DNA of 19,618 nt. Source: a virus (Duplodnaviria > Heunggongvirae > Uroviricota > Caudoviricetes). Numbering within the stretch: the stretch's first letter is position 1; every line of letters starts with the position of its first letter. Of this stretch, positions 1 to 16,884 are shown in pieces. Made by a program: the position numbers and the translations under genes. The stretch spans positions 1-19,618 of the IMG/VR virus record IMGVR_UViG_2526164662_000035; one strand, given 5' to 3'. A model generated the notes under the pieces. The model ran no database searches. It was not told the origin of the DNA and was given only the letters and a program-made list of their open reading frames with translations.

Positions 1-852
1 AAGAATCCGTTTGGTGATATCAAATCGGATGGCACGGTGAAAACGGCTCTCGAAAACCTTGATTTAACGGACCTGGGTATCGGTAAAAATATCTCTGGTT
101 CTAACATTAACTTGCTTTCGAGCGCAACAAGTTCTGGTTTTTATGCATACGGCGGTAATACAGACCCGGATTTTGGGATTGATTACGGAATGGTGCTAAC
201 GTTGTTGTATGATTCCGTATCAAAACAACGAGTGCAGATTTATCTTCCGCTAGCAAATTCTGCTGGAGCAACACCAATCATTCGTGCTGTAACCGGCAAC
301 ACTACGATTTGGAAGTATAAGCTCTTTTCTGAAAAATATAAGCCAACGCCAGCAGATGTGGGGATGGGGTCTGGTGCGCCAGCTATCGGTGTCCCATTCT
401 TCTGGCCCTCCGCAGCAATGCCGAATACGGTCATAAGCGAATGGTCTGACATGGTGTTTTTAAAATTTAACGGCGCGTCATTTTCTGCTGCGGTATACCC
501 CAAACTTGCACAGGTGTTCCCTGGACTTACACTTCCCGAAGCTCGAGGCGAATTCCCGCGTATCTGGGATGATGGTCGTGGGGTCGATTCAGGAAGGGCA
601 TTGCTGAGTACTCAGGTGGATGCCATCCGAAATATCACTGGTGAAGTCGGTATTGTTCAATATTTTGGGAATACTACAAATTCTGGTGCGCTTTATTCTG
701 GGGGGGCACAAAACTTAACGAACCTCCAGCCAGGCGGAAGCACTGTTGCTCAAAGTATTCTCTTCAGCGCTGGAAAAGACCCATCGGTATCAATTGCAAA
801 CGAGAACCGACCGCGCAACATCGCATTCAATTTCCTGGTGAGGGCAAAGTAA
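1..852 (+). CDS. Phage (side) tail fiber protein, C-terminal part; 5' end lies outside the window
   Basis: Frame 1 is open from nt 1 to TAA at 850-852. The C-terminal region (FFWPSAAMPNTVISEWSDMVFLKFNGASFSAAVYPKLAQVFPGLTLPEARGEFPRIWDDGRGVDSGRALLSTQVDAIRNITGE) has the hallmarks of the phage tail-collar domain. Its stop overlaps the start of the downstream tfa-like gene (TAATG). Confidence 0.85.
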   Translation, partial: KNPFGDIKSDGTVKTALENLDLTDLGIGKNISGSNINLLSSATSSGFYAYGGNTDPDFGIDYGMVLTLLYDSVSKQRVQIYLPLANSAGATPIIRAVTGNTTIWKYKLFSEKYKPTPADVGMGSGAPAIGVPFFWPSAAMPNTVISEWSDMVFLKFNGASFSAAVYPKLAQVFPGLTLPEARGEFPRIWDDGRGVDSGRALLSTQVDAIRNITGEVGIVQYFGNTTNSGALYSGGAQNLTNLQPGGSTVAQSILFSAGKDPSVSIANENRPRNIAFNFLVRAK

Positions 853-1187
853 TGAAACCTGTCTTTGATGAAAATGGTCTGGCAACGCAGGCCGGTGATA
901 TTCGTTGTTTTTATTACGATGCAGTGACCATGGAATATGCTGGCTGGTCAGATGAATATATTAACGCTGGCGTCAGCATGCCGGGTAATTCAACAGATGT
1001 TGATCCAGGTGAAATGGTTGATGGAAAGGTTTTTATGTTCACGGGCATCGGATGGCGACAGGATGAAGATCATCGTGGTGAAACGGTATATTCAACCGAT
1101 GATACCTCATCTTCCACTATAGATTATATCGGCCCAGTCAGGAAGGGGTACACAACTGTTGCGCCATCAGGACCATATCAAAAGTAG
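852..1187 (+). CDS. tfa: Tail fiber assembly protein (Tfa), N-terminal 111 aa, ending at an in-frame TAG
   Basis: ATG at 852 overlaps the tail fiber stop. The product ends ...EDHRGETVYS...SGPYQK, matching the conserved mid-region of lambda-type Tfa chaperones (...EDHRGKTVY...GEYQKW...). At 111 aa it is about 80 aa shorter than typical Tfa proteins. Confidence 0.8.
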   Translation: MKPVFDENGLATQAGDIRCFYYDAVTMEYAGWSDEYINAGVSMPGNSTDVDPGEMVDGKVFMFTGIGWRQDEDHRGETVYSTDDTSSSTIDYIGPVRKGYTTVAPSGPYQK

Positions 1188-1442
1188 GGACGGCAAAAAG
1201 TAGGGTAACGAGATACTGACACACAGCACGTTGCCGATGTTGAAGCCGCTGAACAGAAGAAGGCTGCGTTACTGGCTGAAGCGCAGGATAAAATAAGTCT
1301 CTGGCAGACAGAATTGCGACTGGACATCATCAGTGATGGGGATAAGGAAAGTCTGATTGCGTGGGTGCAGTACATAAAAGCCATTCAGGCTATAGATACT
1401 TCATCTGCGCCAAATATCAACTGGCCCACCGAACCAGAATAG
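1188..1442 (+). pseudogene. tfa: Tfa C-terminal conserved domain, in the same frame as the N-terminal part but cut off by TAG (1185-1187) and TAA (1206-1208)
   Basis: Same frame as 852-1187. Codons 1209-1439 translate to RDTDTQHVADVEAAEQKKAALLAEAQDKISLWQTELRLDIISDGDKESLIAWVQYIKAIQAIDTSSAPNINWPTEPE, the typical Tfa C-terminus (...LLAEA...W..Y...L..VDTS.AP.I.WP). No start codon of its own. The two stops sit in an imperfect 14-15 bp tandem repeat (caaaagtaggga / caaaaagtagggta). Confidence 0.65.
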
Positions 1443-1589
1443 GAACGTTTGGGGAAGAGTTAGATTAAGGGATGAACTAATTGATGATTAATGCTTTTAA
1501 TTACAAAAGTGTAACTGGAGGTGTATTATTATAAAATAAAAAACGAAGCGTGAGAAGGGGCAAAATAGACAATGGCAGCGCTTTTTATT

Positions 1590-1618
1590 TGTGCTTTGAG
1601 TGTTTAACTCAAAGCACA
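1590..1618. terminator. Perfect 12-bp stem hairpin (TGTGCTTTGAGT-gttta-ACTCAAAGCACA) in the intergenic region, possible bidirectional terminator
   Basis: Perfect inverted repeat read directly. T-rich on the upstream + side (gcgctttttattt) and moderately T-rich downstream. Lies between the tfa remnant and the 3' end of the minus-strand acyltransferase. Confidence 0.35.
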
Positions 1619-1871
1619 TGTTCTAAATTATTTACTTTCGTATTTAAGGGGGTTAGGTTATGACCATTTGGTCAAACAAAACGTTTTAAAAATTCTGCGA
1701 TGGGTTTTTCTATGTACATATGAATGACGCTGCCAGGCGCACAAACTTATTATAAAGTATATTCCAATATATAGGAATACATTGGAATAATCAATAAGTC
1801 CGAAAGACACAAACATATATGATACCCAAGCTGTAATCAAACCATGCGTCAAATATATACTATATGAAGCA

Positions 1872-2764
1872 TCACCGACGGAAAATAATAAGTTTAGCCG
1901 GTTTTATTTTACCTTCAAGGCTCAACGCTGCCCAGACACCATAAAAAGCGAAAAACCCCCATATCAAAGGACGATGCCATTCCCCCCCCATGTTTGTTGT
2001 AATATTAAAGTATTCACATAATAAGAATGTGGGAATAAACAAAGTTAATATTGTAAGCGCAATTGTTTTTTTTAACATAGCGCCCAGTAAGTATAATCGA
2101 TACATAAACATACCCATAGCAAATACGACCATTTCTGGTCTTGCCAGTGTTTTCATGAACGGAAGAATTTCGAATATGATGCTGTTATTTTGATAAGTTA
2201 AAATATTAGCTACTATGGATATAGTTAAAAATAAGATCTCTATATACTCTAACCTTGATAATTTGATAGCAATAAAAAATGCAAAAGAAGTATAAAACAA
2301 AAATTCAAGTTGTAATGTCCAACCTATACTTAGAATTGCATCGCGATGCCAGTGAGTGAATGTAATACTCTCAAGATACCATTGAAGACTGATTTTTGTT
2401 TCGGGCCACCAATAAGCAATAGGTGGAGTTGGGGAAGATATATAATGTTTTACTATGAAGGCTGATAGAACGCAAAGGGCGGTAATTAAAGCATATACCG
2501 GGATTATTCTTATTACTCTTCGCATAAAAAAGTTCCCTGCAGATATTTTGAATTCTCCTTCTGATTGAGAGCCACCATATGCTACGTAAGGTATAATAAA
2601 CCACTAATTATGAAAAATATAATAACGCCAAATCCTCCCAGAGATGCAAGGATTTCGATATTCCCAATGCCATATTGTCCAAGTTCGGCATGTGCCAAAA
2701 CCACCATAGCTGCAGCAATAAACCTTAGTGCTTGTATATTGAAAAGCGTTTTTCTTTTATTCAT
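1872..2764 (-). pseudogene. Acyltransferase family 3 (OafA/Oac-like, O-antigen acetyltransferase type) membrane protein, frameshifted near 2525-2585
   Basis: ORF 2582-2764 starts MNKRKTLFNIQALRFIAAAMVVLAHA...FFIISGLLYLT (typical acyltransferase-3 N-terminus). ORF 1872-2525 in another frame carries the signature RRVIRIIPVY and is strongly hydrophobic. My translation shows the second frame is open upstream to a stop at 2604-2606, so the break is a single frame shift around 2580-2590. The hydrophobic ORF 1658-1852 may be a further degraded 3' piece. The region is markedly AT-rich compared with the flanking tail genes. Confidence 0.7.
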
Positions 2765-2880
2765 TTATATACTGACCCAATTTTGTAATTATGAAACTTT
2801 AATTGATAAGGTAAGCATACTAAATAACTGATAAAAATAATAGATCAATTGAAGGGAACACAATCAGGGTTGTGCCATCT

Positions 2881-3176
2881 GCTAAACTCCAAATATTAAA
2901 AATCACTAATACCAGAGCACTAATGGGGCTCTCCATGATGTACTGGGGACAATTGGACAAAATGGAAAGGGAAATGATTGTTGAGCGAACGCAGGCGGGA
3001 TTAGCTGAGCACTCACTGGAGGTTGGATAGGTAGCCGTAGGCCAAACCTAACAGATGAACAATGGGCGCAGGCCGGGCGATTAATTGCATCAGGCGTTCC
3101 TCGCCAGAAGGTGGCGATCATCTATGATGTTGGTATATCGACACTGTATAAGAAGTTTCCGGTCGGAGATAAATGA
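2881..3176 (+). pseudogene. DNA invertase (Gin/Pin/Hin/Cin family serine recombinase), C-terminal remnant with a -1 frameshift and no catalytic N-terminal domain
   Basis: Frame 1 (2923-3030) reads MGLSMMYWGQLDKMEREMIVERTQAGLAEHSLEVG*. Frame 0 (3021-3176) reads GWIGSRRPNLTDEQWAQAGRLIASGVPRQKVAIIYDVGISTLYKKFPVGDK*, nearly the same as the Gin/Pin C-terminal HTH region (GRIGGRRPKLTPEQWAQAGRLIAAGTPRQKVAIIYDVGVSTLYKRFPAGDK, recalled from memory). The N-terminal ~120 aa with the catalytic serine is absent. Confidence 0.8.
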
Positions 3177-3236
3177 AACCGTAGCACGTCGTATGCAAGA
3201 AGATCGTGCTGCGGTTTATGCTTATCACTTAAAGAC

Positions 3237-4106
<870 letters not shown>

Positions 4107-4190
4107 CTAACCCTTTGAATTTACATAGCGCAAAAAGATACCTTTCCTCATAATGTGAGCTAATTTTATGTTTCGTTTGATGATCGGGTC

Positions 4191-4251
4191 GGTCTCGAAA
4201 ACCGGAGTAGGGGCAACTCTACTGGGGGTTCAAATCCCCCTCTCTCCGCCA
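4191..4251 (+). other. 3' fragment (61 nt) of tRNA-Ser(CGA), serU-like; att remnant, probably the prophage attR
   Basis: ggtctcgaaaaccggagtaggggcaactctactgggggttcaaatccccctctctccgcca: anticodon loop CUCGAAA, long variable arm, T-loop GTTCAAATC, acceptor 3' strand plus CCA. The 5' acceptor strand and D-arm are not present upstream, so this is not an intact tRNA gene. Confidence 0.8.
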
Positions 4252-4826
4252 CTTTATCAATGACTTATCTCCCGACTTCCCGCCTTGCTTTTCCTAAACA
4301 GAACAATCGTAGAATATTCTTGAAGGGTTAGATCGTCACTGTTTTCTGTTCGATACTGTGACATTCAGCACTTGATTCGCTATGGATCTGACAGGAAGGT
4401 TTCGAGCGAAAATCTGCAGTTATTCAGTCGTTTTCTTATCGGTCACCATTATTCTTTTAGACATTGATCCTACAAAGCTGCCGCAAAGTTGGTGGTGGGA
4501 ACTGAAGTTGCGTAGAGAAGGGGTCAATACCCGGAGGCACACATGGGCTGGCAAAAGTGTAGCGGTATTAGGCGCAGCTATTTAGCCTAGTTATGTTTTA
4601 TGAAAACTTGATATCATATAAGTGTCTTACTTATTGGCTGTAAATAAGTTTTTCCTAAGGAATTGTTTCTTGAGTATCATTTGTAACTGTAACGGAATTT
4701 ATAATCCTTTGCTTTATTGTTACGGTATTTTTTATCACACCCTATTTTTTATGTGGTTTTTTATACTGAAGTTTGGCAAAGTGAACTTTATATGCATATA
4801 CTTCATCCTGGTTTCAGTTAAATTGG

Positions 4827-5579
4827 GTGGATGATATGGCAACTACATGTTCAGTTATATTGATTTTGGAGTCCTTTGATATTTATTTCGGAAAAGAGAG
4901 TGTGTTTCTGGAGAGAGGTTCATCTGTACTTGTCGACTCTAGCTCTAGAGATTTTTTCCTGACATATCCTGAAAGAGTGATAGTGGCGGATTTTGGCGCT
5001 GAGTTTATTAGTCGCTATTTGAAAGCTAATAACTTAAGGGATATTTCTGATTGTAGGGAATATCCATCTTATTTAAAAATAAACTTTGCTGACTTCAGTT
5101 TAATTAAAGGATTAATTAGTTGGGCTAATCACTGTGCTGAATACATAGAAATTTTTGATGAGTCTATTGCTTTTACATGTCTCTCTGCATTTTCTTCTGA
5201 AAAACAATTTGGAGTATTTCTGTTTGGATGTTTGAAAAGCACAGGGGCTAAAGTTAAAACGATTATTCATACGGATTTATCTGCACCATGGCGTCTTAAG
5301 GATATATCATCAAGATTATATCTCAGCGAAAGTTTACTAAAGAGGAAATTGAAAGAAGAGGGGATATCATTCAGTAAGATCATACTTGATGAGAGGATGC
5401 AAATGGCTGAATATTTACTCAGCACTCGTTGTTATCCTATTAGTAAAGTAGCTAAGGTCTGTGGTTATGCCAGTGTCTCATACTTTACTTATGTATTTAG
5501 ACGTTATTTTGGTGTTTCTCCAAGTCAATACTCTCAGAGGAGTTCAGAAAGTAAAATTCTTACTCACCAGGGAATCTGA
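4827..5579 (+). CDS. AraC/XylS-family transcriptional regulator (AppY/GadX/Rns-like; low GC)
   Basis: C-terminal double-HTH signature: ...LSAPWRLKDISSRLYLSESLLKRKLKEEGISFSKIILDERMQMAEYLLSTRCYPISKVAKVCGYASVSYFTYVFRRYFGVSPSQYSQR. About 250 aa, like AppY-type regulators. The ATG at 4836 has better spacing to GGTGG and may be the true start. Confidence 0.85.
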   Translation: MDDMATTCSVILILESFDIYFGKESVFLERGSSVLVDSSSRDFFLTYPERVIVADFGAEFISRYLKANNLRDISDCREYPSYLKINFADFSLIKGLISWANHCAEYIEIFDESIAFTCLSAFSSEKQFGVFLFGCLKSTGAKVKTIIHTDLSAPWRLKDISSRLYLSESLLKRKLKEEGISFSKIILDERMQMAEYLLSTRCYPISKVAKVCGYASVSYFTYVFRRYFGVSPSQYSQRSSESKILTHQGI

Positions 5580-5584
5580 TCATT

Positions 5585-5850
5585 GTTCTTGCCCCCTTAT
5601 TTCCAGACAGGGGGTGTATCTTAAGTTAACGTTACCCGCTGACGTCGATATTCTCGCGGAGAGCGATAACCCAACGCACTGTGCGGATGGTTTTCATTGT
5701 AATGTTCGATCGCCACTGCAAGATTATGCAATGCCGTTCTTACATTCGGTTTCGGCATGAACGCGATGTAGTCTTCCTTCATCGTTTTCACGAATCTTTC
5801 TGCCATTCCATTACTCTGAGGACTGCTGATTACCCATGAGGAGTACAATT
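5585..5850 (-). mobile_element. Truncated IS2-like (IS3 family) element: 3' end of the orfB transposase plus the terminal inverted repeat
   Basis: Minus-strand ORF 5621-5848 translates to ...[63 protein letters not shown], the C-terminus of IS2 OrfB. Beyond its stop the minus strand reads ...CTGTCTGGAAATAAGGGGGCAAG, matching the IS2 terminal repeat (TGTCTGGAAATATAGGGGCAAATCCA, from memory). Only ~265 bp of the IS is present, abutting the AraC gene stop. Confidence 0.8.
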
Positions 5851-6068
5851 AAACGGGTTAATCAGTTTCTCCATTTGAAAGAAAAAAGACTTCTGTACTG
5901 TTTGATATCACCGCTATTTTCTTATTTTCTGTGCAGGTCGTAGTGGGACAAAACTGAGACACATAAGGCCTCACAATGGCTTGCAAGGCTTTACATGTTT
6001 TGATGTGGTGGGACGTGTGAGCGCAGTGTTGATGGGGTAATACTTTGAATTAGAAGCGGATTCTTATG

Positions 6069-6114
6069 ATTCGTAATGCGAAGGTCGTAGGTTCGACTCC
6101 TATTATCGGCACCA
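6069..6114 (+). other. 3' fragment (46 nt) of tRNA-Thr (thrW-like); att site
   Basis: attcgtaatgcgaaggtcgtaggttcgactcctattatcggcacca matches the 3' 46 nt of E. coli thrW including CCA. The 5' half of the tRNA is not present upstream. A 46-bp thrW core is what I recall for P22-type attachment sites. Confidence 0.85.
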
Positions 6115-6721
6115 TCAAGAAAATCAATAACTTAGCTTAACTTCTCTAAGAAATTGTATCTTCTGTTATCACTTACAAACGCCTATACGTTGTTATGGGC
6201 TTTGGTAGTGTAACACGTATGGGCGAGTAGTTCCCAGGCTCAACCTCGTAACAAGTTCCTTTGAAGCTGGAAGACGTGCCACCGTCTCTAAACCTTCTAC
6301 CAAAACTCTTAGCAAGATGTTCCACACCTGGCGCGGTGTCCAATGATGCTACACGTCGAGATGACGTCGCAGAGGATAAACAGGCTAAATGATGGGAAGA
6401 GTTTTAAGTGCAATAGTGGATTAAAGCCCACCTCTTCAAAACCTAACTTGATCGGGAAAGAATCAAGCTCTAGCACGGTTTCGTCCACCGGAGTACAACG
6501 GGTGCCTGATAAGAGAAGAACTGCTAAGACTTCATAGCTTTTGTGAAAAAGCCCTTTTTAGTGGATATGCCTACGGCGCTTATTTTTTGGTATAACCATC
6601 AAAGGCGCTTTATGGCTCCTATTGTCTTGAAAATGTATCTTTACTTGTATTGTGTTTTATGCGTAGTCTCCCTGTGTAGTATGTAACTTGTTAATTTTCA
6701 TATGAATACAGAGGCAACACG

Positions 6722-6874
6722 ATGAAAAACATTGCAGCTATAAAACGTAATAACCGCAAGATTCACGCTCGTAAGTTCCTGTCTACGCCAGAGGGAAAAG
6801 CCTGGCTAGAGCGTAAACAGCGAGAGAACGAAGAAAGAAAACTCCTTAGTGAGTTGAAATGGCTTAAGGATTGA
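6722..6874 (+). CDS. Small basic protein (50 aa), hypothetical
   Basis: ATG with AGAGG 9 nt upstream. Product MKNIAAIKRNNRKIHARKFLSTPEGKAWLERKQRENEERKLLSELKWLKD. Followed by a long hairpin at 6884-6927. Below the 60-aa cutoff of the supplied ORF track. Confidence 0.35.
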   Translation: MKNIAAIKRNNRKIHARKFLSTPEGKAWLERKQRENEERKLLSELKWLKD

Positions 6875-6883
6875 ATCACCAGT

Positions 6884-6927
6884 AGGCGCATAACACATCC
6901 AGCAATCAAAGATGTGTTTGTGCGCCT
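6884..6927 (+). terminator. Long imperfect hairpin (AGGCGCATAACACATC ... GATGTGTTTGTGCGCCT) after the small ORF; possible terminator or RNA structure
   Basis: Stem of ~16 bp with an 11-nt loop read directly. The T-run (agttttttag) is ~20 nt downstream, so it is not a canonical intrinsic terminator. Confidence 0.3.
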
Positions 6928-7424
6928 GATAGTGAAATTATTAAAGTTTTTTAGTTAATGTAGCCATTGCATGAACGATGATCGCTAGTGAATCGATTTT
7001 ATCTCGAGGGGTAAAATAGATGAGGTATATGATGGTAACAATTACAGCTAAAGTAATTGTGGTTCTGCAGGTTTTTAAAATGGATAAGATAAAGCGCATA
7101 GATACCCCCTATTGATTTAACAACAACAAGGTATCATTTATTTTTTATTGCATGCAATGTGCAAATTTTCACATATAATAGCTTACTATTCACTTTGCAT
7201 GGTGTCAACAAGATGATGTGTTGTTTTGTTTGATTTGTTCAAGATAATATTTCATTTTCTCATCTATATAACTTGTGTTTTAGATAATTTCACTAATTGT
7301 AAAAGTTACGTATTGCTTAATAGCTGCCTTTTTATCTGAAATCGGCGCAAACGTGATCAATGTTTAACGCGAAGATCAGCGGCGTCAGGTCCACGCAGCG
7401 ACAATTCTCAAATATCAGGAGGCA

Positions 7425-7982
7425 TTACGCTTCCTGCTCTTTCTTGATACGTTGCACCGTCTGTGTGCTGACACTGAAATCTTTTGCTACGCTCCGAATT
7501 GATCCACCATTCGCGAGAGCGGCAACAATTCCCGCTCGATCAATTGCTTTTCCATTACCACGTTTTGCTATACGTCCAGCGGCCTTAGCTGCGGCAATCC
7601 CCTCACGTTGCCGCTCAAGCATCATTTCACGTTCCATTTGTGCCACTGCTGCAAGCACTGTGAGCATCATATTCCCTGCGGGAGAGTTCTTCCCTGTCTT
7701 AAAGTCTTCTTTATGGAAATGCACAGACACGCCGCGCTCTGTTAATTGCTCAACCGTTGCCAGTAGGTCGGCTGTATTACGGCAAAGTCGATCAATGCTG
7801 TGAACATGCAAAACATCACCTTCACGCACATAGTTCATCATTGCCTCAAACTGTGGGCGCTGGGTATTCTTGCCTGACGCTTTATCTTCAAAGACTTTAT
7901 CAAGAGTTACTCCAGCTAATTGACGGTCTGTGTTTTGTTGGACAGTCGATACCCTAATGTATCCAATATTAGCCATTTTCAT
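7425..7982 (-). CDS. Small serine recombinase (resolvase/invertase family, 185 aa)
   Basis: N-terminal catalytic motif GYIRVSTVQQNTDRQ with the conserved Ser, a central ...DRLCRNTADLL... segment, and a C-terminal HTH (GGSIRSVAKDFSVSTQTVQRIKK). Length and layout match gamma-delta/Tn3 TnpR-type resolvases. GGAA lies upstream of the ATG. Confidence 0.9.
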   Translation of the reverse strand: MKMANIGYIRVSTVQQNTDRQLAGVTLDKVFEDKASGKNTQRPQFEAMMNYVREGDVLHVHSIDRLCRNTADLLATVEQLTERGVSVHFHKEDFKTGKNSPAGNMMLTVLAAVAQMEREMMLERQREGIAAAKAAGRIAKRGNGKAIDRAGIVAALANGGSIRSVAKDFSVSTQTVQRIKKEQEA

Positions 7983-7990
7983 TTTCCTTC

Positions 7991-8107
7991 TGTGTTGATT
8001 TGTGTGTAGTGATTATTGATCGTGTTGATTAGGTGTGTAAATGACTTTTTTCACTACGAAATTCGAAGGTTTTTAGTGTGGTGATTTAGCCTGCTTTATC
8101 ACTACAC
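7991..8107. promoter_or_regulatory. Cluster of GTGT(A/G/T)G(T)GATT motifs in both orientations just upstream of the serine recombinase; candidate res/operator site
   Basis: TGTGTTGATT (7991-8000), GTGTAGTGATT (8004-8014), GTGTTGATT (8022-8030), GTGTGGTGATT (8077-8087), and inverted ATCACTACAC (8098-8107) and TCACTAC (8051-8057). Multi-subsite res sites sit immediately upstream of resolvase genes in Tn3-family systems. Confidence 0.4.
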
Positions 8108-8504
8108 GTCTTGCATGAGAATCATGTAGTTATGCTTTGGTAAAATTAGCAAGCTATTAAATAGCGTGTTTATTTTGAAAAAATTAATTTTTTCAACACG
8201 TGAAAGGAACTTGTTCGACAAATAATAGATTGATTTTTAATCAACAATTTCTGATAGTGCTCTGTAAGCCACATTACACAAGGCGCAGCGAAAGTGATGT
8301 AAAAGTGAAGAAAGCTAACATTGCACTTTTAAGCTACTTTTCATTGAATTTTTAGTATGGAATTACATAGGGATTAATCATCAATTAATCTTGAATTTAA
8401 GCCTGTTTTAGATGTTTAATTTTTGATAGCAAGAAACACTTTTAGAAGATCATTGCACAGATGTTATGTGATAAATGGATGTAACGGTAGGTCACTGTGA
8501 ACTA

Positions 8505-8640
8505 CCCCCCACAGAATTCTGTTATCCTTAACTTTTAAAGAAATATGCACCCTAACAGAAAACTGTTACCCCAACCCTAACAGAATTATGTTAGACACCC
8601 CCACAGAAAACTGTTAGCCACCCCTACAGAATTTTGTTAC
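8505..8640 (+). repeat. Array of five phased iterons, each a palindrome CCC-(T)AACAG-N4-CTGTTA, spaced ~23 bp (first one 44 bp upstream)
   Basis: Copies centred on ACAGAATTCTGT (8511-8522), TAACAGAAAACTGTTA (8553-8568), TAACAGAATTATGTTA (8578-8593), CACAGAAAACTGTTA (8602-8616), TACAGAATTTTGTTA (8625-8639). ACAG start positions 8511, 8555, 8580, 8603, 8626. Each is preceded by a short C-run. An AT-rich tract follows at ~8641-8720. Confidence 0.8.
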
Positions 8641-9135
8641 CTATTAGATCAACTATCAAACTACAATTAAATTATCTTTTATAAATTCTTTTATCTTTAA
8701 AGAATAATTATAGGGATACCCGTTAGGGGAGTCTTCGACTATCCCTTAATCTATTGGCATTCGCCAGAACCTTGCACAAGTTAGAGTGTTAGTCGTTAGA
8801 CTGCTTGTCATAACACATAGTTTTTTGTTTGTTGATGTTAGTTAGTAGATCTATGTTCGCTAATGCCGCTCACAACGAATATGTAATCTACTATGTGCAA
8901 ATAGCCTACGGCTTGCGTAAGGCTAAATAGTCTTGCGCTGTGCGCAGAACGATAATTAACTAACTACCATCTAACGATCATCAATCTATTTAAGAGAAAA
9001 TCTATTGTGCAATACTCTGACGAGTGCAATAACCTTGTGTGCTACGCGTTAGCGATGTTAGCACATAGACACAGACAACAACCAACAACAAACAAAAAGA
9101 ATGGTTTTAGTAGTTGAAGGTTAAATAAGATTCTA

Positions 9136-9365
9136 CCGCTTAAATCAAGCCGTAGGCGAGCTAAACGTATATAAGGTAGGGAAACACTTAGCGGTAATAG
9201 ATTAGCTCGTTATAGAGTTTCTGAGAGCTTTGCAGGTATTTTATAAGATGTCTGAAATTAGATTTTATCTATCATCATCTTCCCATATACCTAACAAATA
9301 CAAAATAACCCCCTTAAATAAGCCTCTGGCGAGCTAAACAGCCATTACATAAGGGAATGTATTGT
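9136..9365 (+). repeat. Two copies of a ~45-bp imperfect direct repeat (CTTAAAT-AAGCC-N3-GGCGAGCTAAAC...ATAAGG..GGGAA) about 173 bp apart
   Basis: 9136-9187 cgcttaaatcaagccgtaggcgagctaaacgtatataaggtagggaaa versus 9309-9365 cccttaaataagcctctggcgagctaaacagccattacataagggaatg. A tandem GCGTTTTAGA x2 follows at ~9388-9407. Confidence 0.6.
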
Positions 9366-9500
9366 TTTTATCAAAACCTCGTTAGAACGCGTTTTAGAGC
9401 GTTTTAGACAATAATAAAGAATAGCACTACACATGAGAGCACGAATTGCTAAGAAATATCATAACTTACTGAAAATGATCAATATTTATATGGATAGGGG

Positions 9501-9529
9501 TTGACAAAAGCTTTTAGTCGTGGTAAAGT
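9501..9529 (+). promoter_or_regulatory. Sigma70-like promoter candidate (TTGACA-17 bp-TAAAGT) upstream of the early small-gene cluster
   Basis: TTGACA at 9501-9506, 17-nt spacer, TAAAGT at 9524-9529. The first gene of the cluster starts at 9650 with a strong AGGAGG ribosome-binding site. Confidence 0.3.
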
Positions 9530-9649
9530 AATATTAGGGACAGAAAACATTCTTATCCTCTAAGTAATTAAACCAATGCACCGCACTTTGAAGCCCAAGG
9601 CTTGCAAGGTGTCTTTTTCTTTTAACCAAATAGAATAGGAGGTTAATTA

Positions 9650-9850
9650 ATGAAGTATTACACTCCACAGGATGTAATCGAAGCCTGGAAACGTGGTGAG
9701 ATCAATCGTTTTAAAGTAAGGATGAACAGGAACACAGCGCGACGCTGTGGTTATCCAGAGCGTGAAAAATGCTTTGACGATGCACTAAAAATTATTGATG
9801 AATTAAGAAAAAATGAAAAAGGATCTGAAAAAGAATCTGAAACAGAGTAA
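9650..9850 (+). CDS. Hypothetical small protein (66 aa)
   Basis: Strong ribosome-binding site (aggaggttaattaATG). Charged product MKYYTPQDVIEAWKRGEINRFKVRMNRNTARRCGYPEREKCFDDALKIIDELRKNEKGSEKESETE. First gene after the 1.7-kb noncoding region. Confidence 0.5.
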   Translation: MKYYTPQDVIEAWKRGEINRFKVRMNRNTARRCGYPEREKCFDDALKIIDELRKNEKGSEKESETE

Positions 9851-9869
9851 AGAAGAGAAGGAGAAAACT

Positions 9870-10040
9870 ATGAGCGAAACTACAGAAAAGAAAAGACAAC
9901 CACGCACTTGCTTTCATATTCCTGATGAAGTATTTCAGGTGTTGTTTAAAGAAGCCAGAAGTAAACGTATCACTGTTACAGATTACATTCTTGATATGTT
10001 GAAAAGAGAGGCTGAAACACTCTCAAACAAAAGCAAGTGA
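9870..10040 (+). CDS. Putative ribbon-helix-helix (Arc/CopG-like) DNA-binding protein (56 aa)
   Basis: ATG at 9870 preceded by GGAGAA. Product MSETTEKKRQPRTCFHIPDEVFQVLFKEARSKRITVTDYILDMLKREAETLSNKSK shows a beta-strand/helix/helix pattern (RTCFHIP / DEVFQVLFKEA / VTDYILDMLKRE) typical of RHH regulators. The ORF-track start at 9813 overlaps the upstream gene and is less likely. Confidence 0.45.
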   Translation: MSETTEKKRQPRTCFHIPDEVFQVLFKEARSKRITVTDYILDMLKREAETLSNKSK

Positions 10041-10093
10041 TTTTTATCACCATAGTAGCGCCGTAGAGCGTGATTACATCAAGGAGATTTTTA

Positions 10094-10663
10094 ATGATTA
10101 ATGAAGAACAATTTGTAAAAGTTCCTATGTGGATTCTAAAAATAAGCCAAGTAAACGGGCATAAATTTACAGATAGTGCTAAAAACCTTTACTGCTATTT
10201 GAGAGGGTTTGATCGTGCATTTCCCTCTTACGCTAAGATAGGCGATGTTTTTGGCATAACACCAAGAGCAGCAGAAGAAAGGGTTAAGAAATTGCTCGAA
10301 ATGGGATTAATTATAAAAGATGCACGACCAGGAAGCTCTAACCTTTATCGAGTGCTTGATATTCCAAAAGGAGAATCATCACTACCTGATCCTTCTGAGA
10401 AAGAAGACGAATCTAATGAAATATTGAATGTTTCCGAAATCATCGTTGAAGAAGAAACACAGGAATCAGAGTTCCCTGAGCGGCCCGAAATTTTTACTTG
10501 GCTTCTTTCCCTTGATAAGAAGAAACCACCGCACGAAGAAACAGAAGATTTTGTAAAACGTGCATTAGATTCAAAGAATATCTATCTTGAGAAACAGGCT
10601 TTTCACGATCTGATAATATCTCTAAGAGAAAAAAGTGAAATATACGATTCAATACCATTCTAA
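10094..10663 (+). CDS. Winged-helix DNA-binding protein with an acidic C-terminal region; candidate replication initiator or iteron-binding protein
   Basis: ATG at 10094 with AAGGAG 7 nt upstream. N-terminal region MINEEQFVKVPMWILKISQVNGHKFTDSAKNLYCYLRGFDRAFPSYAKIGDVFGITPRAAEERVKKLLEMGLIIKD resembles the winged-helix N-terminal domain of phage/plasmid replication initiators. Function is inferred. Confidence 0.45.
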   Translation: MINEEQFVKVPMWILKISQVNGHKFTDSAKNLYCYLRGFDRAFPSYAKIGDVFGITPRAAEERVKKLLEMGLIIKDARPGSSNLYRVLDIPKGESSLPDPSEKEDESNEILNVSEIIVEEETQESEFPERPEIFTWLLSLDKKKPPHEETEDFVKRALDSKNIYLEKQAFHDLIISLREKSEIYDSIPF

Positions 10664-10672
10664 GGAGAATAA

Positions 10673-10942
10673 ATGACTTATAACATCACTATAGGAAACA
10701 AAACTATTGAAATAACTGAAAGCGGATACAACATTTTAAAAGCTATTTTGGACATAGAGTTCTCACCCCCGACAGTGGTTAGCTTTTGTAGTTTAGGCGG
10801 CTACAGCGCACAACATGTGAATCATTGGTTAAACCATTTTACATCGTTCGGTGTGCTGGATTATGAAGGGATTAACCACACTACATTTCGTCTTTTGAAA
10901 TTAAACAAAGATTTTGAATTGTTTATCACAAACAATCAATAA
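10673..10942 (+). CDS. Hypothetical protein (89 aa)
   Basis: ATG preceded by AGGAG (taaggagaataaATG). 10 nt after the upstream gene, consistent with an operon. Confidence 0.5.
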   Translation: MTYNITIGNKTIEITESGYNILKAILDIEFSPPTVVSFCSLGGYSAQHVNHWLNHFTSFGVLDYEGINHTTFRLLKLNKDFELFITNNQ

Positions 10943-11038
10943 CAACAGATCGGGCAATACATATGGCAAATGCATTTATGGCGATATTCATCGTAACAAT
11001 GGTATCAAGTTTTTATAATCCACATAAAAAGAGAGAAA

Positions 11039-11422
11039 ATGGGAAGAAAGAAAAAGAACAACTTAAAACGTATTGAAAAAAACAGTAACTTCAATTCAAC
11101 AAGACAACGTCCACCGACACACACCAATAACGAAATTCCAGGGGAAGAGATAATATTTATTCTTGAAACAGAATCCCCTGAAATAAGCGATGAAGAACAA
11201 GAAATAATCAAATCAATGCCAGGCGTTTACTTTCGCCCAAGAACAAGAAAACAAACAATAATTTCTGATGGCACTCTGAAACGTTGGCAGCTTTTAGGGT
11301 TTAGCTCCTATCATCATTTTTTGGGATTTAACGCTTTCAATAATTGTGTAGGTGGTGCATCGGAAGTCGATCTGATGGCTCATTTAGAAGCTACATTAGC
11401 TTCTAACAAACGCTCTAACTAA
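11039..11422 (+). CDS. Hypothetical protein (127 aa), basic N-terminus and acidic middle
   Basis: ORF with N-terminal MGRKKKNNLKRIEK and a central acidic stretch ETESPEISDEEQEI. No recognisable catalytic motif. Confidence 0.45.
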   Translation: MGRKKKNNLKRIEKNSNFNSTRQRPPTHTNNEIPGEEIIFILETESPEISDEEQEIIKSMPGVYFRPRTRKQTIISDGTLKRWQLLGFSSYHHFLGFNAFNNCVGGASEVDLMAHLEATLASNKRSN

Positions 11423-11437
11423 TAAAAGGATGGTCGT

Positions 11438-11683
11438 ATGTATAAGCGCCCAATGAAAATATTCGAAAAAGGAAAAATAATGATTGGCTATATTCAAGAA
11501 ACACAATTATTTCAGATGATCCTGTCTGATGCAAAAAACTATGCTGAGTTAATCCGACTGGCAAAAGAAACAGAAGACTACGAAGCATTAGAGCGTTATC
11601 GTGATGAAGTGCTGACGCTCAAGACACCTTTTAACATCGTATTGAATATGATTAATGATGCATTACAAGGAGAAGCCGCATAA
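11438..11683 (+). CDS. Hypothetical small protein (81 aa)
   Basis: ATG preceded by AAGGATGG. Stop overlaps the start of the next ORF (TAATGG), suggesting translational coupling. Confidence 0.45.
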   Translation: MYKRPMKIFEKGKIMIGYIQETQLFQMILSDAKNYAELIRLAKETEDYEALERYRDEVLTLKTPFNIVLNMINDALQGEAA

Positions 11684-11991
11684 TGGAAGAAGATATTAGC
11701 AATGCAATGGAACAACTTTTAGATCTGACTATCTCACTACAAACAAGAATAAATCAAGCCTATTCAGATTTATGCGATTACACGCTCTCTCAATGCGTTA
11801 TTAGCTTAATGAAGGTGAATGTAAGCCTTGACGATTTTATCTCTCTGGTGAGCGATTTAGAGCTAATTGAGGACGATGCCAAGATGTGCACTCAAACCAT
11901 CACAGACACCGCCAGCACGTTAAAGGCTGCAAGTGAAGAGATTCAGCAATTAGTAGATGATTTAGCAAAAAGTGCTATTCCCTCTAAATGA
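11683..11991 (+). CDS. Hypothetical acidic helical protein (102 aa)
   Basis: Start overlaps the upstream stop. Last gene before the second ORF-free region. Confidence 0.45.
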   Translation: MEEDISNAMEQLLDLTISLQTRINQAYSDLCDYTLSQCVISLMKVNVSLDDFISLVSDLELIEDDAKMCTQTITDTASTLKAASEEIQQLVDDLAKSAIPSK

Positions 11992-12734
11992 TAATGAAAA
12001 TCATTTGCATTTATATAATAAAAATGTTATATTTGTATTAAGGGTAGATAAAAAGGTTTTGACTGGTGTTAATCCTTCTACTGTCATAAATCCCTGCATA
12101 TGGAAGGTGATAGCCTCAAGGGTTGAGTGGCATTAACCTCTAACAAATATTACCTTCCATCTCTCAAGAAGTTTTAGAATAATCATAACTCCCTCTTTGA
12201 TTGTTGATTGTTTCTACGTTGTGTTGATGAATGTTGTTAGGCATTGTGCTTAATTTTGATAAAAGCGGGTAGGTGTTATCTCCTTGCCCTTCCCGCTCTT
12301 ATTTTTCATCTATGCTTATCCTAAAGCTCCTTATTTTGTCCGAAAACATTAAAGAGCCTTACACTGATAGTTATATTTTATAACTATTTACTAACATCAT
12401 TAAACTCTTATTTAATGACAGAAGTTAGTAACAGAATAATCTATTAAGTTGTTGTCAAAAAACTATCATCTGCATAGCGTTAGCCGCAAGCAGAGAGAGT
12501 TTAGCTAAGAATTGTGCAATAACCTTTGGAAATATTGATAGCAAAACGGGTTTTATAGACTGCAAATCTATAATCTTTGGTTGTAAAAACGCTTTTTCTG
12601 AAACGGTAGATTATTGTTGGTGTAGTTAATCCCTATTAAAATTTAATCTGTGAGTAGATTGGAATAGTGATTCCTTAAAATCTGACTGGTGCATCCACAC
12701 CATGAAAGATAGCGGTTAGCCACCGCACCCGAAT

Positions 12735-12790
12735 AGATATTCCTGATTGATTCCGCATGTTTTCCTAAGAGCATGTTTTCAGGAATATCT
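12735..12790. repeat. Perfect 12-bp inverted repeat AGATATTCCTGA ... TCAGGAATATCT around a 32-bp spacer containing GCATGTTTTC twice
   Basis: Read directly: 12735-12746 and 12779-12790 are exact reverse complements. The spacer holds the direct repeat GCATGTTTTC x2. Confidence 0.7.
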
Positions 12791-12897
12791 GTTCACCCTT
12801 TAAACCTATCTTTAAGCATGTTTAATAAGCATTCTTAGAGATACGTTTAAAACCTCCTCAAGGTTTTACTTATCGCTGTGTATTGCCCGACACGTTA

Positions 12898-12950
12898 ATA
12901 AATCCCCCTCGCTATTCTCAGATTGAACCTCTTATAGCCTGGGGGATTTA
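12898..12950. repeat. Perfect 10-bp inverted repeat TAAATCCCCC ... GGGGGATTTA around a 33-bp spacer, just upstream of the structural cluster
   Basis: 12898-12907 and 12941-12950 are exact reverse complements. Lies ~30 bp upstream of the ORF starting at 12983. Confidence 0.6.
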
Positions 12951-12982
12951 TTAAATTCCAACATAATGGAATCGTTATATAA

Positions 12983-13192
12983 ATGAAACAAGAAATTATC
13001 CTGAAATATGGCAATGAAAAGTTAACACTAACTGAAGATGTGTTGAATGCTACAGCCTACGCGCTTGGTATCACTCCCACAGAATTAAAGAAACAGTGTG
13101 AACGTCTTTATAAGGCTGAAAGCAATAAACCATCTCACCAAGATTTGATTAATGCTAAAGCTCAACAAATCAAACAATCTAAGGAAAAATAA
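12983..13192 (+). CDS. Hypothetical small protein (69 aa), first gene of the structural-type cluster
   Basis: ORF whose stop overlaps the next start (TAATGG). Confidence 0.45.
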   Translation: MKQEIILKYGNEKLTLTEDVLNATAYALGITPTELKKQCERLYKAESNKPSHQDLINAKAQQIKQSKEK

Positions 13193-13566
13193 TGGCTATT
13201 TTAAAATTAAGCGATGTTTTCCTACATCGTAAAAGCATCACTGACGTAGTGAGCTATGCAACCGACCCTTACGCGGCTGTAGAAAGCAAAAAATTTGCAG
13301 CACTTGCACAAGATGTAACGTGCGGCGACCTCATTGATTCATCCGGCGCTAAATATGTTAGCGGCGCTGATGTTCTTGTCGTTGTGTCTGACTTCGTAAC
13401 TGCTGATTCAAATAAAACAGTTAACGTGCTTCGTGCTAATGCCGGACTCGTTTGCATCAAAGCTGATGCCCTGAATGCCGAAGGCGCTGTAAAAGAAGCT
13501 GCTATTGCAGCTCTCGCTGCTAAAGGCTTCCAGCTTGAAGGCTTCCACTCTGTTTTCACATCTTAA
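13192..13566 (+). CDS. Possible head decoration or scaffold protein (124 aa), positioned like lambda gpD
   Basis: AAGGAA ribosome-binding site. Ala/Val/Gly-rich product immediately upstream of the gpE-like capsid gene. The gpD analogy rests on position and size only; sequence similarity is weak. Confidence 0.4.
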   Translation: MAILKLSDVFLHRKSITDVVSYATDPYAAVESKKFAALAQDVTCGDLIDSSGAKYVSGADVLVVVSDFVTADSNKTVNVLRANAGLVCIKADALNAEGAVKEAAIAALAAKGFQLEGFHSVFTS

Positions 13567-13582
13567 GAAGGAATAAATAATA

Positions 13583-14611: not shown

Positions 14612-14763
14612 AAAGTGTTAAAGACGTTCCCCTACGTCTGGAAATAATCGGGGCAATAAGGGTAAGGGATAATCATATAAGCAAAATATGCGCTGTCTCT
14701 TGCCCTTTTTGTTTTTCTACTGTCTACAAACCTAAATAAAAATATATATGTGAGAGAAAACCA

Positions 14764-14961
14764 ATGAACACAGAAAATTCACAGGCATTAATTCTTAAAT
14801 CTGTAAAAGAACTGGCAGCTATTAGCGATGACTCAATAATCAATGTCAGTGCCTTATGCAGAATGCTTTCAATTGATGCAAATAATGTGCGTCAGCGTGT
14901 CTTTCAGACTGGATGTAGCACTTTCGAAGCAATCCAATATTATTGCTCTAAAAAACAATAA
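14764..14961 (+). CDS. Hypothetical small protein (65 aa)
   Basis: ORF between the capsid-like gene and the 613-aa gene. Weak ribosome-binding site. Confidence 0.35.
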   Translation: MNTENSQALILKSVKELAAISDDSIINVSALCRMLSIDANNVRQRVFQTGCSTFEAIQYYCSKKQ

Positions 14962-14995
14962 CAAATAACAATCATAATACAGGGAAACAATTAAC

Positions 14996-16837: not shown

Positions 16838-16884
16838 TCATCACTGTGGGGCGGTTTAGCCCCCTTAAATAAGGATTACAAATT

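What the first reader, a model, noticed from the sequence alone, without database searches (positions are those of the whole stretch)
1443..3176. Invertible tail-fiber switch replaced by an AT-rich acyltransferase moron, leaving only the invertase C-terminus
In Mu/P1/e14-type regions an intact Gin/Pin invertase gene follows the tail fiber/tfa genes and flips an alternative fiber segment. Here only the last ~85 codons of the invertase survive, frameshifted, and the space between tfa and the remnant is filled by low-GC DNA encoding a family-3 acyltransferase on the opposite strand. That looks like a lysogenic-conversion (O-antigen acetylation) cassette inserted at the cost of host-range switching.
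Basis: partly seen in the sequence, partly recalled or inferred. Interest (0 to 1): 0.45.

Follow-up and report, generated by a model that had tools for sequence, protein, structure and literature searches.

The report
Acyltransferase cassette replacing phage tail-fibre switch
In this E. coli prophage the DNA switch that normally flips between two tail-fibre tips has been replaced by an AT-rich membrane acyltransferase gene, a familiar kind of phage cargo gene that arrived as a ready-made block and may be broken in this copy.

Summary
Between the tail-fibre chaperone gene (stop at 1442) and a dead invertase fragment (2893-3176) lie 1,450 bp of 34% GC DNA. They carry a family-3 acyltransferase gene (AT3, PF01757) on the minus strand (1672-2764).

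Related prophages such as ETEC H10407 have the full e14-type switch at this spot: alternative fibre and chaperone genes, 20-nt inverted repeats and an intact pinE. About 1,283 of 5,426 E. coli genomes match pinE and its neighbour starting exactly at window 3057.

- **Not a local insertion.** The block from about 66 to 3056 was imported whole by recombination. A Citrobacter locus has the same acyltransferase and an invertase cut at the same codon.
- **The remnant is chimeric.** 2893-3056 is foreign and already frameshifted; 3057-3176 is identical to resident pinE.
- **The genes are interrupted here.** The acyltransferase has three 1-nt indels and the chaperone gene is also broken. These occur in one draft assembly only and look like sequencing errors.

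The intact protein shares the catalytic motifs of phage Sf6 O-antigen acetylase and is under purifying selection (dN/dS 0.13). Surface-sugar acetylation is inferred, not shown. This is a new member of a known kind, of modest interest.

The parts
1..852 (+). 3' part of the tail-fibre gene. The end of the constant region is about 1-61; the variable tip (Sv) runs from about 62 to 852. The window, and the source contig, begin inside this gene.
   Evidence: In C7 the gene is one continuous 360-codon ORF across this junction. It matches PHROG tail-fibre families. Homology to the switch-bearing ETEC H10407 prophage ends at window 65.
47..72 (+). Orphan, half-degenerate Pin crossover site, CTCTCGAAAACC TT GATTTAACGGAC. 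The outer half-site is intact and the inner half-site has decayed.
   Evidence: H10407 has CTCTCGAAAACCTTGGTTTGGGAGAA at the equivalent place (L002 3047-3072), with its partner at L002 4972-4997. The tool reports a 20-nt inverted repeat there, 95% complementary. No second site exists anywhere in the window.
852..1442 (+). Tail-fibre assembly chaperone gene (tfa). It is 195 aa in C7. In the window it is interrupted by 1-nt insertions at 1186, 1202 and 1210, with a stop at 1185-1187.
   Evidence: The C7 product hits PF02413 at E 3.7e-32.
1443..2892 (.). AT-rich block (33.9% GC) occupying the place of tfa', Sv', pixR, the pin promoter and pin codons 1 to about 94.
   Evidence: Composition. No trace of tfa' or Sv' is found by tblastn. 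No flanking direct repeats.
1590..1618 (.). Perfect 12-bp stem with a 5-nt loop between the convergent tfa and acyltransferase genes. It is probably a transcription terminator.
   Evidence: Inverted repeat I11. The fold has a centroid energy of -17.2 kcal/mol, z = -3.2, and 0 of 200 shuffles fold as well. The simple terminator scan did not call it because it lacks a clean T-run.
1672..2764 (-). AT3-only (PF01757) membrane acyltransferase gene. It is 363 codons in relatives and carries three 1-nt indels in the window (1743, 1879, 2600).
   Evidence: Family hits: PF01757 at E 1e-25 and phrog_3333 'O-acetyltransferase' at E 5e-82. The R14-X10-H25, FFIISG and R83-xx-R86 motifs are invariant with Sf6 Oac. 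After repairing the three indels the protein differs from C7 at 1 of 363 residues. dN/dS against the Citrobacter allele is 0.13.
2765..2892 (.). 128-bp spacer (29.7% GC) upstream of the acyltransferase start codon. This is the presumed promoter region.
   Evidence: Composition. It is conserved in the Citrobacter locus. The consensus scan found no sigma-70 site here.
2893..3056 (+). Foreign part of the invertase pseudogene (about codons 94-145), with indels and an in-frame stop.
   Evidence: The alignment with E. coli pinE is weak here and has several gaps. The equivalent stretch including the spacer (2765-3066) is 87% identical to the Citrobacter copy. That copy starts at the same point and shares the main frameshift.
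3057..3176 (+). Resident part of the invertase pseudogene (last 40 codons, HTH region, stop at 3174-3176).
   Evidence: It is identical to pinE of ETEC H10407. Every one of the 30 listed pinE-type rows among 1,283 matching E. coli genomes starts at query base 358, which is window 3057.

Best explanation
This is the receptor-binding end of an e14/SfV-like prophage: lambdoid early genes, an HK97-type head and a Mu-type contractile tail.

**What happened.** In an ancestral phage, probably outside E. coli, about 1.45 kb of AT-rich DNA replaced part of the Pin-type tail-fibre switch. The parts lost were the alternative fibre tip and chaperone genes, the right crossover site, and the invertase promoter with its first 94 or so codons. 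The new DNA carries an AT3-only membrane acyltransferase gene, antisense to the late operon, with a hairpin terminator at its 3' end.

**How it reached this prophage.** The resulting block is fibre tip, chaperone, acyltransferase and dead invertase 3' end. It then moved as a unit between prophages by homologous recombination. The homology arms were two short conserved sequences: the end of the fibre constant region, which includes the outer half of the left crossover site (around window 1-65), and the 3' end of the invertase gene (crossover at 3057-3066 here).

**Consequences.**
- The fibre is fixed in one orientation. With one degenerate site, no invertase and no enhancer, inversion is impossible.
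- The lysogen gains an enzyme that most likely passes an acetyl group from cytoplasmic acetyl-CoA across the inner membrane onto a surface polysaccharide. The O-antigen is the best guess for the target. This would change the serotype and block adsorption of phages that use that sugar, as Sf6 Oac does.

**State of this copy.** The acyltransferase and chaperone genes are interrupted by 1-nt indels. These are more likely sequencing errors than real inactivation (my estimate about 0.7).

**Shown and inferred.** The anatomy, the breakpoints, the modular spread and the purifying selection are shown. The acceptor sugar, expression from the prophage and the exclusion phenotype are inferred.

**Confidence.** The stated 0.65 is for the whole account. 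I put the structural and evolutionary part at about 0.85 and the surface-glycan acetylation role at about 0.55.
For: **Replacement.**
- H10407 matches the window only at 1-65 and from 3057 on. In between it has tfaE, tfa', Sv' and an intact pinE, bracketed by a 20-nt inverted repeat.
- Of 5,426 E. coli genomes, 1,283 match the pinE/GIY-YIG side, and the listed pinE matches all start at exactly window 3057.

**Pre-formed, imported block.**
- Citrobacter meridianamericanus BR102 has a tfa remnant, the acyltransferase (93% aa identity) and an invertase remnant that begins at the same codon. Its homology to the window runs 1206-3066.
- The Sv and tfa alleles occur at 97% identity or more in only 6 of 5,426 genomes, and always together with the acyltransferase.
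- In ERP001 the same block (C7 coordinates 2995-6210) sits on a different baseplate backbone, with intS directly after it.
- In ST69 the right flank differs again.

**Enzyme.**
- The intact protein hits PF01757 and phrog_3333, the same PHROG family as Sf6 Oac. BLASTP against Oac gives 29% identity, E 2e-7.
- It keeps the R/K-X10-H, FFxISG and RxxR motifs. Of these, the arginine and histidine positions (R14, H25, R69, R72 in OafA; R73, R75 in Oac) were shown to be essential, as was G53 of the FFxISG motif in Oac (PMC7448272).
- dN/dS is 0.13, while the flanking remnants carry indels.
- Its closest relatives (47-65% identity) lie tail-to-tail with tailspike genes at prophage ends. This is the classic lysogenic-conversion position.

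**Indels as artefacts.**
- They occur in one draft assembly only, starting 1.2 kb from a contig end.
- Most are homopolymer-length changes, one base inserted or deleted. Two are the same TGG to TAGG change just after A-runs.
- Within the acyltransferase gene there are 3 indels but only 2 substitutions relative to C7.
Against: - No biochemical or expression data exist. The consensus scan finds no sigma-70 promoter in the 128-bp upstream spacer.
- Identity to any characterised acetylase is low (29% to Oac). NCBIfam has no equivalog and no deposited phage genome holds a close homologue.
- A positionally analogous prophage acyltransferase, NeaT of CFT073, has no defined substrate despite study (PMC3573123).
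- The other 13.5 kb of the window shows only 2 gap openings against its nearest relative. The assembly is therefore not generally error-prone, and the indels could be real.
- The donor lineage with an intact copy of the 'foreign' invertase was not found.
- The inner half of the left crossover site may never have been functional in this block.
Confidence: 0.65

Rival explanations
1. One reading: the acyltransferase cassette was inserted directly into this prophage, deleting its own switch and the 5' part of its own pinE in a single local event.
For: The gene order and the AT-rich composition fit a local insertion-deletion. The last 120 nt of the remnant are identical to resident pinE.
Against: - The 5' part of the remnant (2893-3056) aligns only weakly, with gaps, to resident pinE, yet is close to a Citrobacter copy truncated at the same codon with shared frameshifts.
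- The Sv and tfa alleles to the left are also foreign to switch-bearing E. coli relatives.
- The same block is found on another phage backbone.
- No target-site duplication or other flanking repeats.
Confidence: 0.07
2. In this strain the cassette is a dead relic. The frameshifts in tfa and the acyltransferase are real, so the prophage makes neither a functional fibre chaperone nor an acyltransferase, and the region has no current function.
For: - As given, the sequence has three frameshifts in the acyltransferase and a premature stop in tfa.
- The rest of the window is almost free of indels against its relatives.
- The prophage end also carries an IS3 remnant.
Against: - The indels are private to one draft assembly.
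- Most are homopolymer-length or post-homopolymer changes, and two are the same TGG to TAGG change.
- Within the gene, indels outnumber substitutions 3 to 2, and the repaired protein differs at 1 of 363 residues. That is unlike natural decay.
- The invertase remnant, which really is dead, gained no new indels relative to C7.
Confidence: 0.3
3. The acyltransferase is functional in intact copies but does not act on O-antigen. It may acylate another envelope glycan (ECA, capsule or colanic acid, periplasmic glucans, peptidoglycan). It would then serve host fitness or virulence, as NeaT of CFT073 does, rather than phage exclusion.
For: - AT3 proteins have many substrates (PMC9558356).
- NeaT is an AT-rich PF01757 gene antisense to the tail genes, directly after tfa in a P2-like prophage. 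It affects aggregation and bloodstream fitness and has no known substrate (PMC3573123).
- In Citrobacter the gene is kept under purifying selection while the tail-fibre, chaperone and invertase genes around it have decayed or are gone.
Against: - NeaT is not detectably similar by BLASTP (E 0.7).
- The query scores higher on phrog_3333 (277 bits) than Oac itself (230.5) or NeaT (80.8).
- Its nearest relatives lie tail-to-tail with tailspike genes at prophage ends.
Confidence: 0.3

Closest known systems
e14 P-invertible segment with PinE (Din family: Gin of Mu, Cin of P1, Hin)
   Same: - Same neighbourhood of baseplate and fibre genes (YmfQ, StfP).
- Same fibre constant region ending in the outer half of the crossover site.
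- The last 40 codons of pinE are identical to those of ETEC H10407.
(e14 inversion described in PMC4272514.)
   Different: - No catalytic domain and no intact ORF.
- No second crossover site, and no alternative Sv' or tfa' genes.
- The switch is gone and the fibre is fixed in one form.
Oac (OacA), the O-antigen acetylase of Shigella phage Sf6
   Same: - AT3-only architecture and the same PHROG family, phrog_3333.
- Shared R-X10-H, FFxISG and RxxR motifs.
- The gene is convergent with, and next to, the receptor-binding protein gene near a prophage end.

   Different: - Only 29% identity, over the N-terminal 208 residues.
- The host phage is a myovirus-type tail with a fibre, not a P22-like podovirus with a tailspike.
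- The gene sits in a former invertible-segment site rather than between tailspike and int.
- The substrate is unknown.
NeaT of E. coli CFT073 prophage phi-b0847 (PMC3573123)
   Same: An AT-rich (about 30% GC), unameliorated PF01757 gene, antisense to the flanking tail genes and lying immediately after the tail-fibre assembly gene. It is rare in E. coli (PMC3573123).
   Different: - Not an orthologue: BLASTP E 0.7.
- The backbone is P2-like, and the gene lies between gene G and gene FI.
- No invertase remnant is annotated next to neaT in CFT073.
Phage 'moron' in the sense used in PMC3573123
   Same: - An extra gene absent from close relatives at the same position.
- Deviant base composition.
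- Opposite strand to the late operon, with a hairpin at its 3' end.

   Different: It is a substitution, costing the phage about 1.1 kb of switch DNA, rather than a pure addition. A promoter of its own was not detected by the scan.

Membership tests
Acyltransferase family 3 (AT3, PF01757) carbohydrate O-acyltransferases | Pfam PF01757 match above the gathering score | tested here: met
   The intact C7 allele scores 90.9 bits against a cutoff of 31, E 1e-25, covering residues 9-347. After repairing the three indels the window copy differs from it at 1 of 363 residues.
Acyltransferase family 3 (AT3, PF01757) carbohydrate O-acyltransferases | Conserved motifs: R/K-X10-H in TM1, FFxISG in TM2, RxxR (PMC7448272) | tested here: met
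   R14, H25, F50-F51-x-I53-S54-G55, R83 and R86 are invariant across 8 sequences, including Sf6 Oac.
Acyltransferase family 3 (AT3, PF01757) carbohydrate O-acyltransferases | Polytopic membrane protein (about 10 TM helices) | tested here: inconclusive
   A crude Kyte-Doolittle scan gives 8 strong hydrophobic peaks, some overlapping. Oac gives 7 with the same method. No proper topology prediction or structure model was run.
Acyltransferase family 3 (AT3, PF01757) carbohydrate O-acyltransferases | Uninterrupted reading frame in this window | tested here: not met
   Three 1-nt indels at 1743, 1879 and 2600 split the gene into ORFs of 60, 217 and 64 aa. They may be sequencing artefacts.
Serotype-converting phage O-antigen acetylases (Oac type) | Acetylates O-antigen and blocks adsorption of the cognate phage | not testable with these tools
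   Only homology (phrog_3333, 29% identity to Oac) and gene context are available.
Serotype-converting phage O-antigen acetylases (Oac type) | Encoded in a temperate phage next to the receptor-binding protein gene, outside the late operon | tested here: met
   The gene is convergent with tfa and the fibre gene in a complete prophage in C7. Relatives lie next to tailspike genes.
Din-family DNA invertase (Pin/Gin/Cin/Hin) | N-terminal serine-recombinase catalytic domain (PF00239) | tested here: not met
   Only sequence equivalent to PinE residues from about 95 to 184 is present. The intact PinE of H10407 has PF00239 over residues 3-135.
Din-family DNA invertase (Pin/Gin/Cin/Hin) | Intact ORF with a C-terminal HTH_7 domain | tested here: not met
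   The HTH-coding part (3057-3176) is identical to pinE. It has no usable start upstream, and it is preceded by a frameshift and an in-frame stop.
Din-family invertible segment | Two crossover sites in inverted orientation flanking the segment | tested here: not met
   There is one half-degenerate site at 47-72 and no second match anywhere in the window. The intact relative has a 20-nt inverted repeat, 95% complementary.
Phage moron | Extra DNA absent from close relatives at the same position, with deviant composition | tested here: met
   It is absent from H10407. The pinE-type relatives listed match only from window 3057 onward. GC is 33.9% against about 47% in the flanks.
Phage moron | Own promoter and terminator, expressed from the repressed prophage | tested here: inconclusive
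   A strong hairpin lies at 1590-1618. No consensus promoter was found in the 128-bp upstream spacer. Expression cannot be tested here.

The most novel reading that the evidence does not exclude
The fibre tip, its chaperone and the acyltransferase may form a co-adapted 'bind and mask' cassette. In this reading the enzyme acetylates the very surface sugar that the linked fibre recognises. The leftovers of the old inversion system (the outer half of the crossover site and the invertase 3' end) now act as portable homology arms. These would let unrelated prophage backbones swap host range and superinfection exclusion in one recombination step.

The strict linkage of this Sv-tfa allele with the acyltransferase fits this reading (6 of 6 E. 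coli genomes). So does its presence on two different baseplate backbones, with block ends in those two conserved sequences. None of this proves it.
Probability: 0.2. Interest if true: 0.55.

Novelty: new member of a known kind. Interest (0 to 1): 0.3.

Why it matters
It is a clean, datable example of a temperate phage giving up host-range bet-hedging (an invertible fibre switch) for a cargo gene that probably remodels the host surface. It also shows such a block spreading between prophage backbones and genera through short conserved arms.

In Citrobacter the acyltransferase is kept under purifying selection while the tail-fibre, chaperone and invertase genes around it have decayed or are gone. 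That suggests it benefits the host.

Practically:
- It flags a rare, uncharacterised surface-modifying enzyme (6 of 5,426 complete E. coli genomes) that could alter serotype or phage susceptibility.
- It is a caution that the frameshifts in this draft assembly should not be read as pseudogenisation without read-level support.

None of this overturns current understanding.

Tried and rejected
An 11-nt inverted match (1498-1508 and 2781-2791) is borderline by my own rough estimate and was not pursued.
- **Vestiges of tfa' or Sv' in the AT-rich block.** None found by tblastn.
- **A second Pin crossover site in the window.** None.
- **Orthology with NeaT of CFT073.** Rejected: BLASTP E 0.7.
- **A close acyltransferase homologue in deposited phage genomes.** None. 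The only hit is 26% identical, in a Psychrobacillus phage.
- **NCBIfam equivalog and solved structures.** No hits.
- **Rfam families and tRNAs across the window.** None.
- **The serine recombinase at 7425-7982 as a trans-acting replacement invertase.** Rejected. It is 42% identical to PinE, has a different HTH type, lies in a separate island next to a thrW fragment, and has no paired sites to act on.
- **Sequencing technology of the source assembly.** A literature search for the accession found nothing useful. The artefact argument therefore rests on the error pattern alone.
- **Donor phage with an intact copy of the 'foreign' invertase allele.** Not found. The best phage hits are 67-79% identical.
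Full report
**Source and layout**

The window is the first 19.6 kb of contig AIGU01000004.1 of assembly GCA_000250095.2, and the contig begins inside a tail-fibre gene. Window 1-5831 is 99.3% identical to the end of a prophage in E. coli C7 and C3. In C7 that prophage is complete. It has lambdoid early genes, an HK97-type head, a Mu/e14-type contractile tail and baseplate (gpV, gp46, J/gp47, YmfQ, StfP) and IntS at argW.

The order in the window is as follows.

| Window | Strand | Feature |
|---|---|---|
| 1-852 | + | 3' part of the tail-fibre gene |
| 852-1442 | + | tfa, the fibre assembly chaperone |
| 1443-1671 | . | AT-rich spacer with a perfect 12-bp hairpin at 1590-1618 |
| 1672-2764 | - | Family-3 acyltransferase (AT3) gene |
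| 2765-2892 | . | Spacer |
| 2893-3176 | + | Invertase remnant |
| 3237-4061 | - | GIY-YIG gene |
| 4827-5579 | + | AraC-family gene |
| from about 5620 | - | IS3 remnant |

**Check of the observation**

The AT-rich block 1443-2892 is 33.9% GC, against 46-49% on both sides. The acyltransferase of C7 (363 aa) hits PF01757 at E 1e-25.

The invertase-like sequence starts near PinE codon 94-95 and ends at the pinE stop codon at 3174-3176. It contains a frameshift and an in-frame stop. The finding's coordinates and description are therefore accurate, apart from 'about 85 codons', which is nearer 90.

**Is it a replacement of the switch?**

ETEC H10407 (L002) matches the window at 1-65 and again from 3057 onward, at 99.3%. 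Between those points it carries tfaE, an inverted tfa', an inverted fibre tip and an intact 184-aa pinE. The segment is bracketed by a 20-nt inverted repeat that is 95% complementary.

The left arm of that repeat is the crossover site inside the fibre gene. H10407 reads CTCTCGAAAACC TT GGTTTGGGAGAA. The window reads CTCTCGAAAACC TT GATTTAACGGAC at 47-72. The window therefore departs from the switch-bearing relative at the core of the crossover site, and its inner half-site is degenerate.

No second site exists in the window. No trace of tfa' or Sv' survives in the AT-rich block. e14 inversion by PinE is documented (PMC4272514).

In 1,283 of 5,426 complete E. coli genomes the pinE/GIY-YIG side is present. 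All 30 listed pinE-type matches begin at exactly window 3057.

**The block was imported, not built here**

- **Chimeric remnant.** 3057-3176 is identical to resident pinE. 2893-3056 aligns to it only weakly, with several indels.
- **Citrobacter copy.** A scan of one genome per species found one further locus, in Citrobacter meridianamericanus BR102. It holds the C-terminal third of tfa, the acyltransferase (93% aa identity) and an invertase remnant that begins at the same point and shares the main frameshift. Homology to the window runs 1206-3066. The truncation and inactivation of the invertase therefore predate the spread of the block. The right-hand crossover into the E. coli prophage lies in the 10 nt between 3057 and 3066.
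- **Linked alleles.** The fibre-tip and tfa alleles of the window occur at 97% identity or more in only six E. coli genomes, always together with the acyltransferase.
- **Different backbones and flanks.** In ERP001 the same block (C7 coordinates 2995-6210, about window -5 to 3210) is joined to a different baseplate set, with intS directly after it. In ST69 the right flank differs again.

The block is thus bounded by two short conserved sequences, the end of the fibre constant region and the pin 3' end. It moves by homologous recombination, a route documented for temperate phages (PMC3945230).

**The enzyme**

The protein belongs to phrog_3333 'O-acetyltransferase' (E 5e-82), as does Sf6 Oac (E 6e-68). 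The two align at 29% identity (E 2e-7).

R14-X10-H25, FFIISG and R83-xx-R86 are invariant in an alignment that includes Oac. PMC7448272 reports these motifs as conserved across characterised AT3 acetyltransferases. It shows that R14, H25, R69 and R72 are essential in OafA, and cites R73, R75 and G53 as critical in Oac.

Between the E. coli and Citrobacter alleles dN/dS is 0.13. The flanking remnants are 76-87% identical and carry indels. The acyltransferase is therefore the selected part of the block.

Its nearest relatives (47-65% identity) lie tail-to-tail with tailspike genes at prophage ends in E. coli, Proteus and metagenomic contigs. This is the position that classical conversion genes such as Sf6 oac occupy (PMC9558356). 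Surface-polysaccharide O-acetylation that gives serotype change and phage exclusion is therefore the best-supported mechanism. The acceptor is unknown.

A positional analogue is known. NeaT of CFT073 is an AT-rich PF01757 gene antisense to the tail genes, lying just after tfa (PMC3573123). It is not an orthologue, and its substrate is still undefined, which limits confidence in the O-antigen assignment.

**State of this copy**

Relative to C7, the window has nine 1-nt indels between 1186 and 2600. There are none in 1-1185 or 2601-5831, and only two gap openings in the other 13.5 kb of the window against its nearest relative.

Three of the indels break the acyltransferase and three break tfa. 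The interrupted products are found in this one assembly only.

Most of the indels are homopolymer-length changes. Two are the same TGG to TAGG change directly after A-runs, and one is an extra G shortly after a GGG run. From my own knowledge, that pattern is typical of flow-based sequencing errors.

Within the acyltransferase gene there are three indels but only two substitutions. The repaired protein differs from C7 at one residue.

I judge artefact more likely than real decay (about 0.7). I could not establish the sequencing technology.

**Verdict**

Its history needs correcting, because the block was imported pre-formed and the remnant is chimeric. Its functional claim remains an inference.

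AT-rich AT3 cargo genes next to phage receptor-binding genes, and decayed invertases, are both known. This is a new member of a known kind, of modest interest.

Noticed in passing
window 3237-4061 (-): The GIY-YIG protein immediately after the invertase remnant matches the PADLOC anti-phage defence model PD-T4-3 over its full length (E 1.4e-139). The same gene follows pinE in about 1,283 of 5,426 E. coli genomes. This prophage end therefore stacks a probable receptor-modifying gene next to a defence gene.
   Followed up: partly
window 4600-5579 (+): A second AT-rich stretch (27-40% GC) holds an AraC-family regulator (250 aa, phrog_1450). It is conserved next to the GIY-YIG gene in related prophages. 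Its target is unknown.
   Followed up: no
window 6069-19063: A separate island of about 13 kb starts where the match to the CAU16175 thrW locus begins, 43 nt from the 3' end of its tRNA-Thr gene (so window 6069-6111 should be a thrW 3' fragment). It carries a small serine recombinase (7425-7982, -), a capsid-E-like protein (13583-14611), a Dit-like tail protein (16885-17562) and a tyrosine integrase (17643-19007, -). Most of its ORFs have no family. It looks like a phage satellite or a reduced prophage.
   Followed up: partly
L004-L008, L022-L025 (relatives); L026-L042: Relatives of the acyltransferase are repeatedly paired with SGNH/GDSL domains. The 47-62% identical relatives lie tail-to-tail with 860-aa tailspikes that contain a GDSL domain. 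In the 33-41% identical relatives checked (L026, L028), a separate GDSL/SGNH gene follows on the same strand; most others in that group have a same-sized (371 aa) ORF there that was not scanned. This may be a split version of the fused AT3-SGNH acetyltransferases, or an acetylase paired with a deacetylating tailspike.
   Followed up: partly
L012 (Citrobacter meridianamericanus BR102) 5590-7720: Around the intact acyltransferase gene, the only tail-fibre or invertase sequence left is a tfa stub and an invertase stub. Chromosomal genes lie beyond on both sides (rsmF-like on one, copC/copD on the other), and a partial tyrosine integrase lies about 1.7 kb away. The cargo gene appears to have outlived the phage that carried it.
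   Followed up: partly
L060 (E. coli ERP001) 8722-12171: The same fibre tip, tfa, acyltransferase and invertase-remnant block is attached to a different baseplate gene set (DUF2612, a different J/gp47, a spike protein) at argW. This shows transfer of the block between unlike tail modules.
   Followed up: partly
window 1646-1656: Six substitutions relative to C7 are clustered in 11 nt, in the 3' untranslated stretch between the acyltransferase stop and the hairpin. This could be a small patch of recombination or more sequence error.
   Followed up: no
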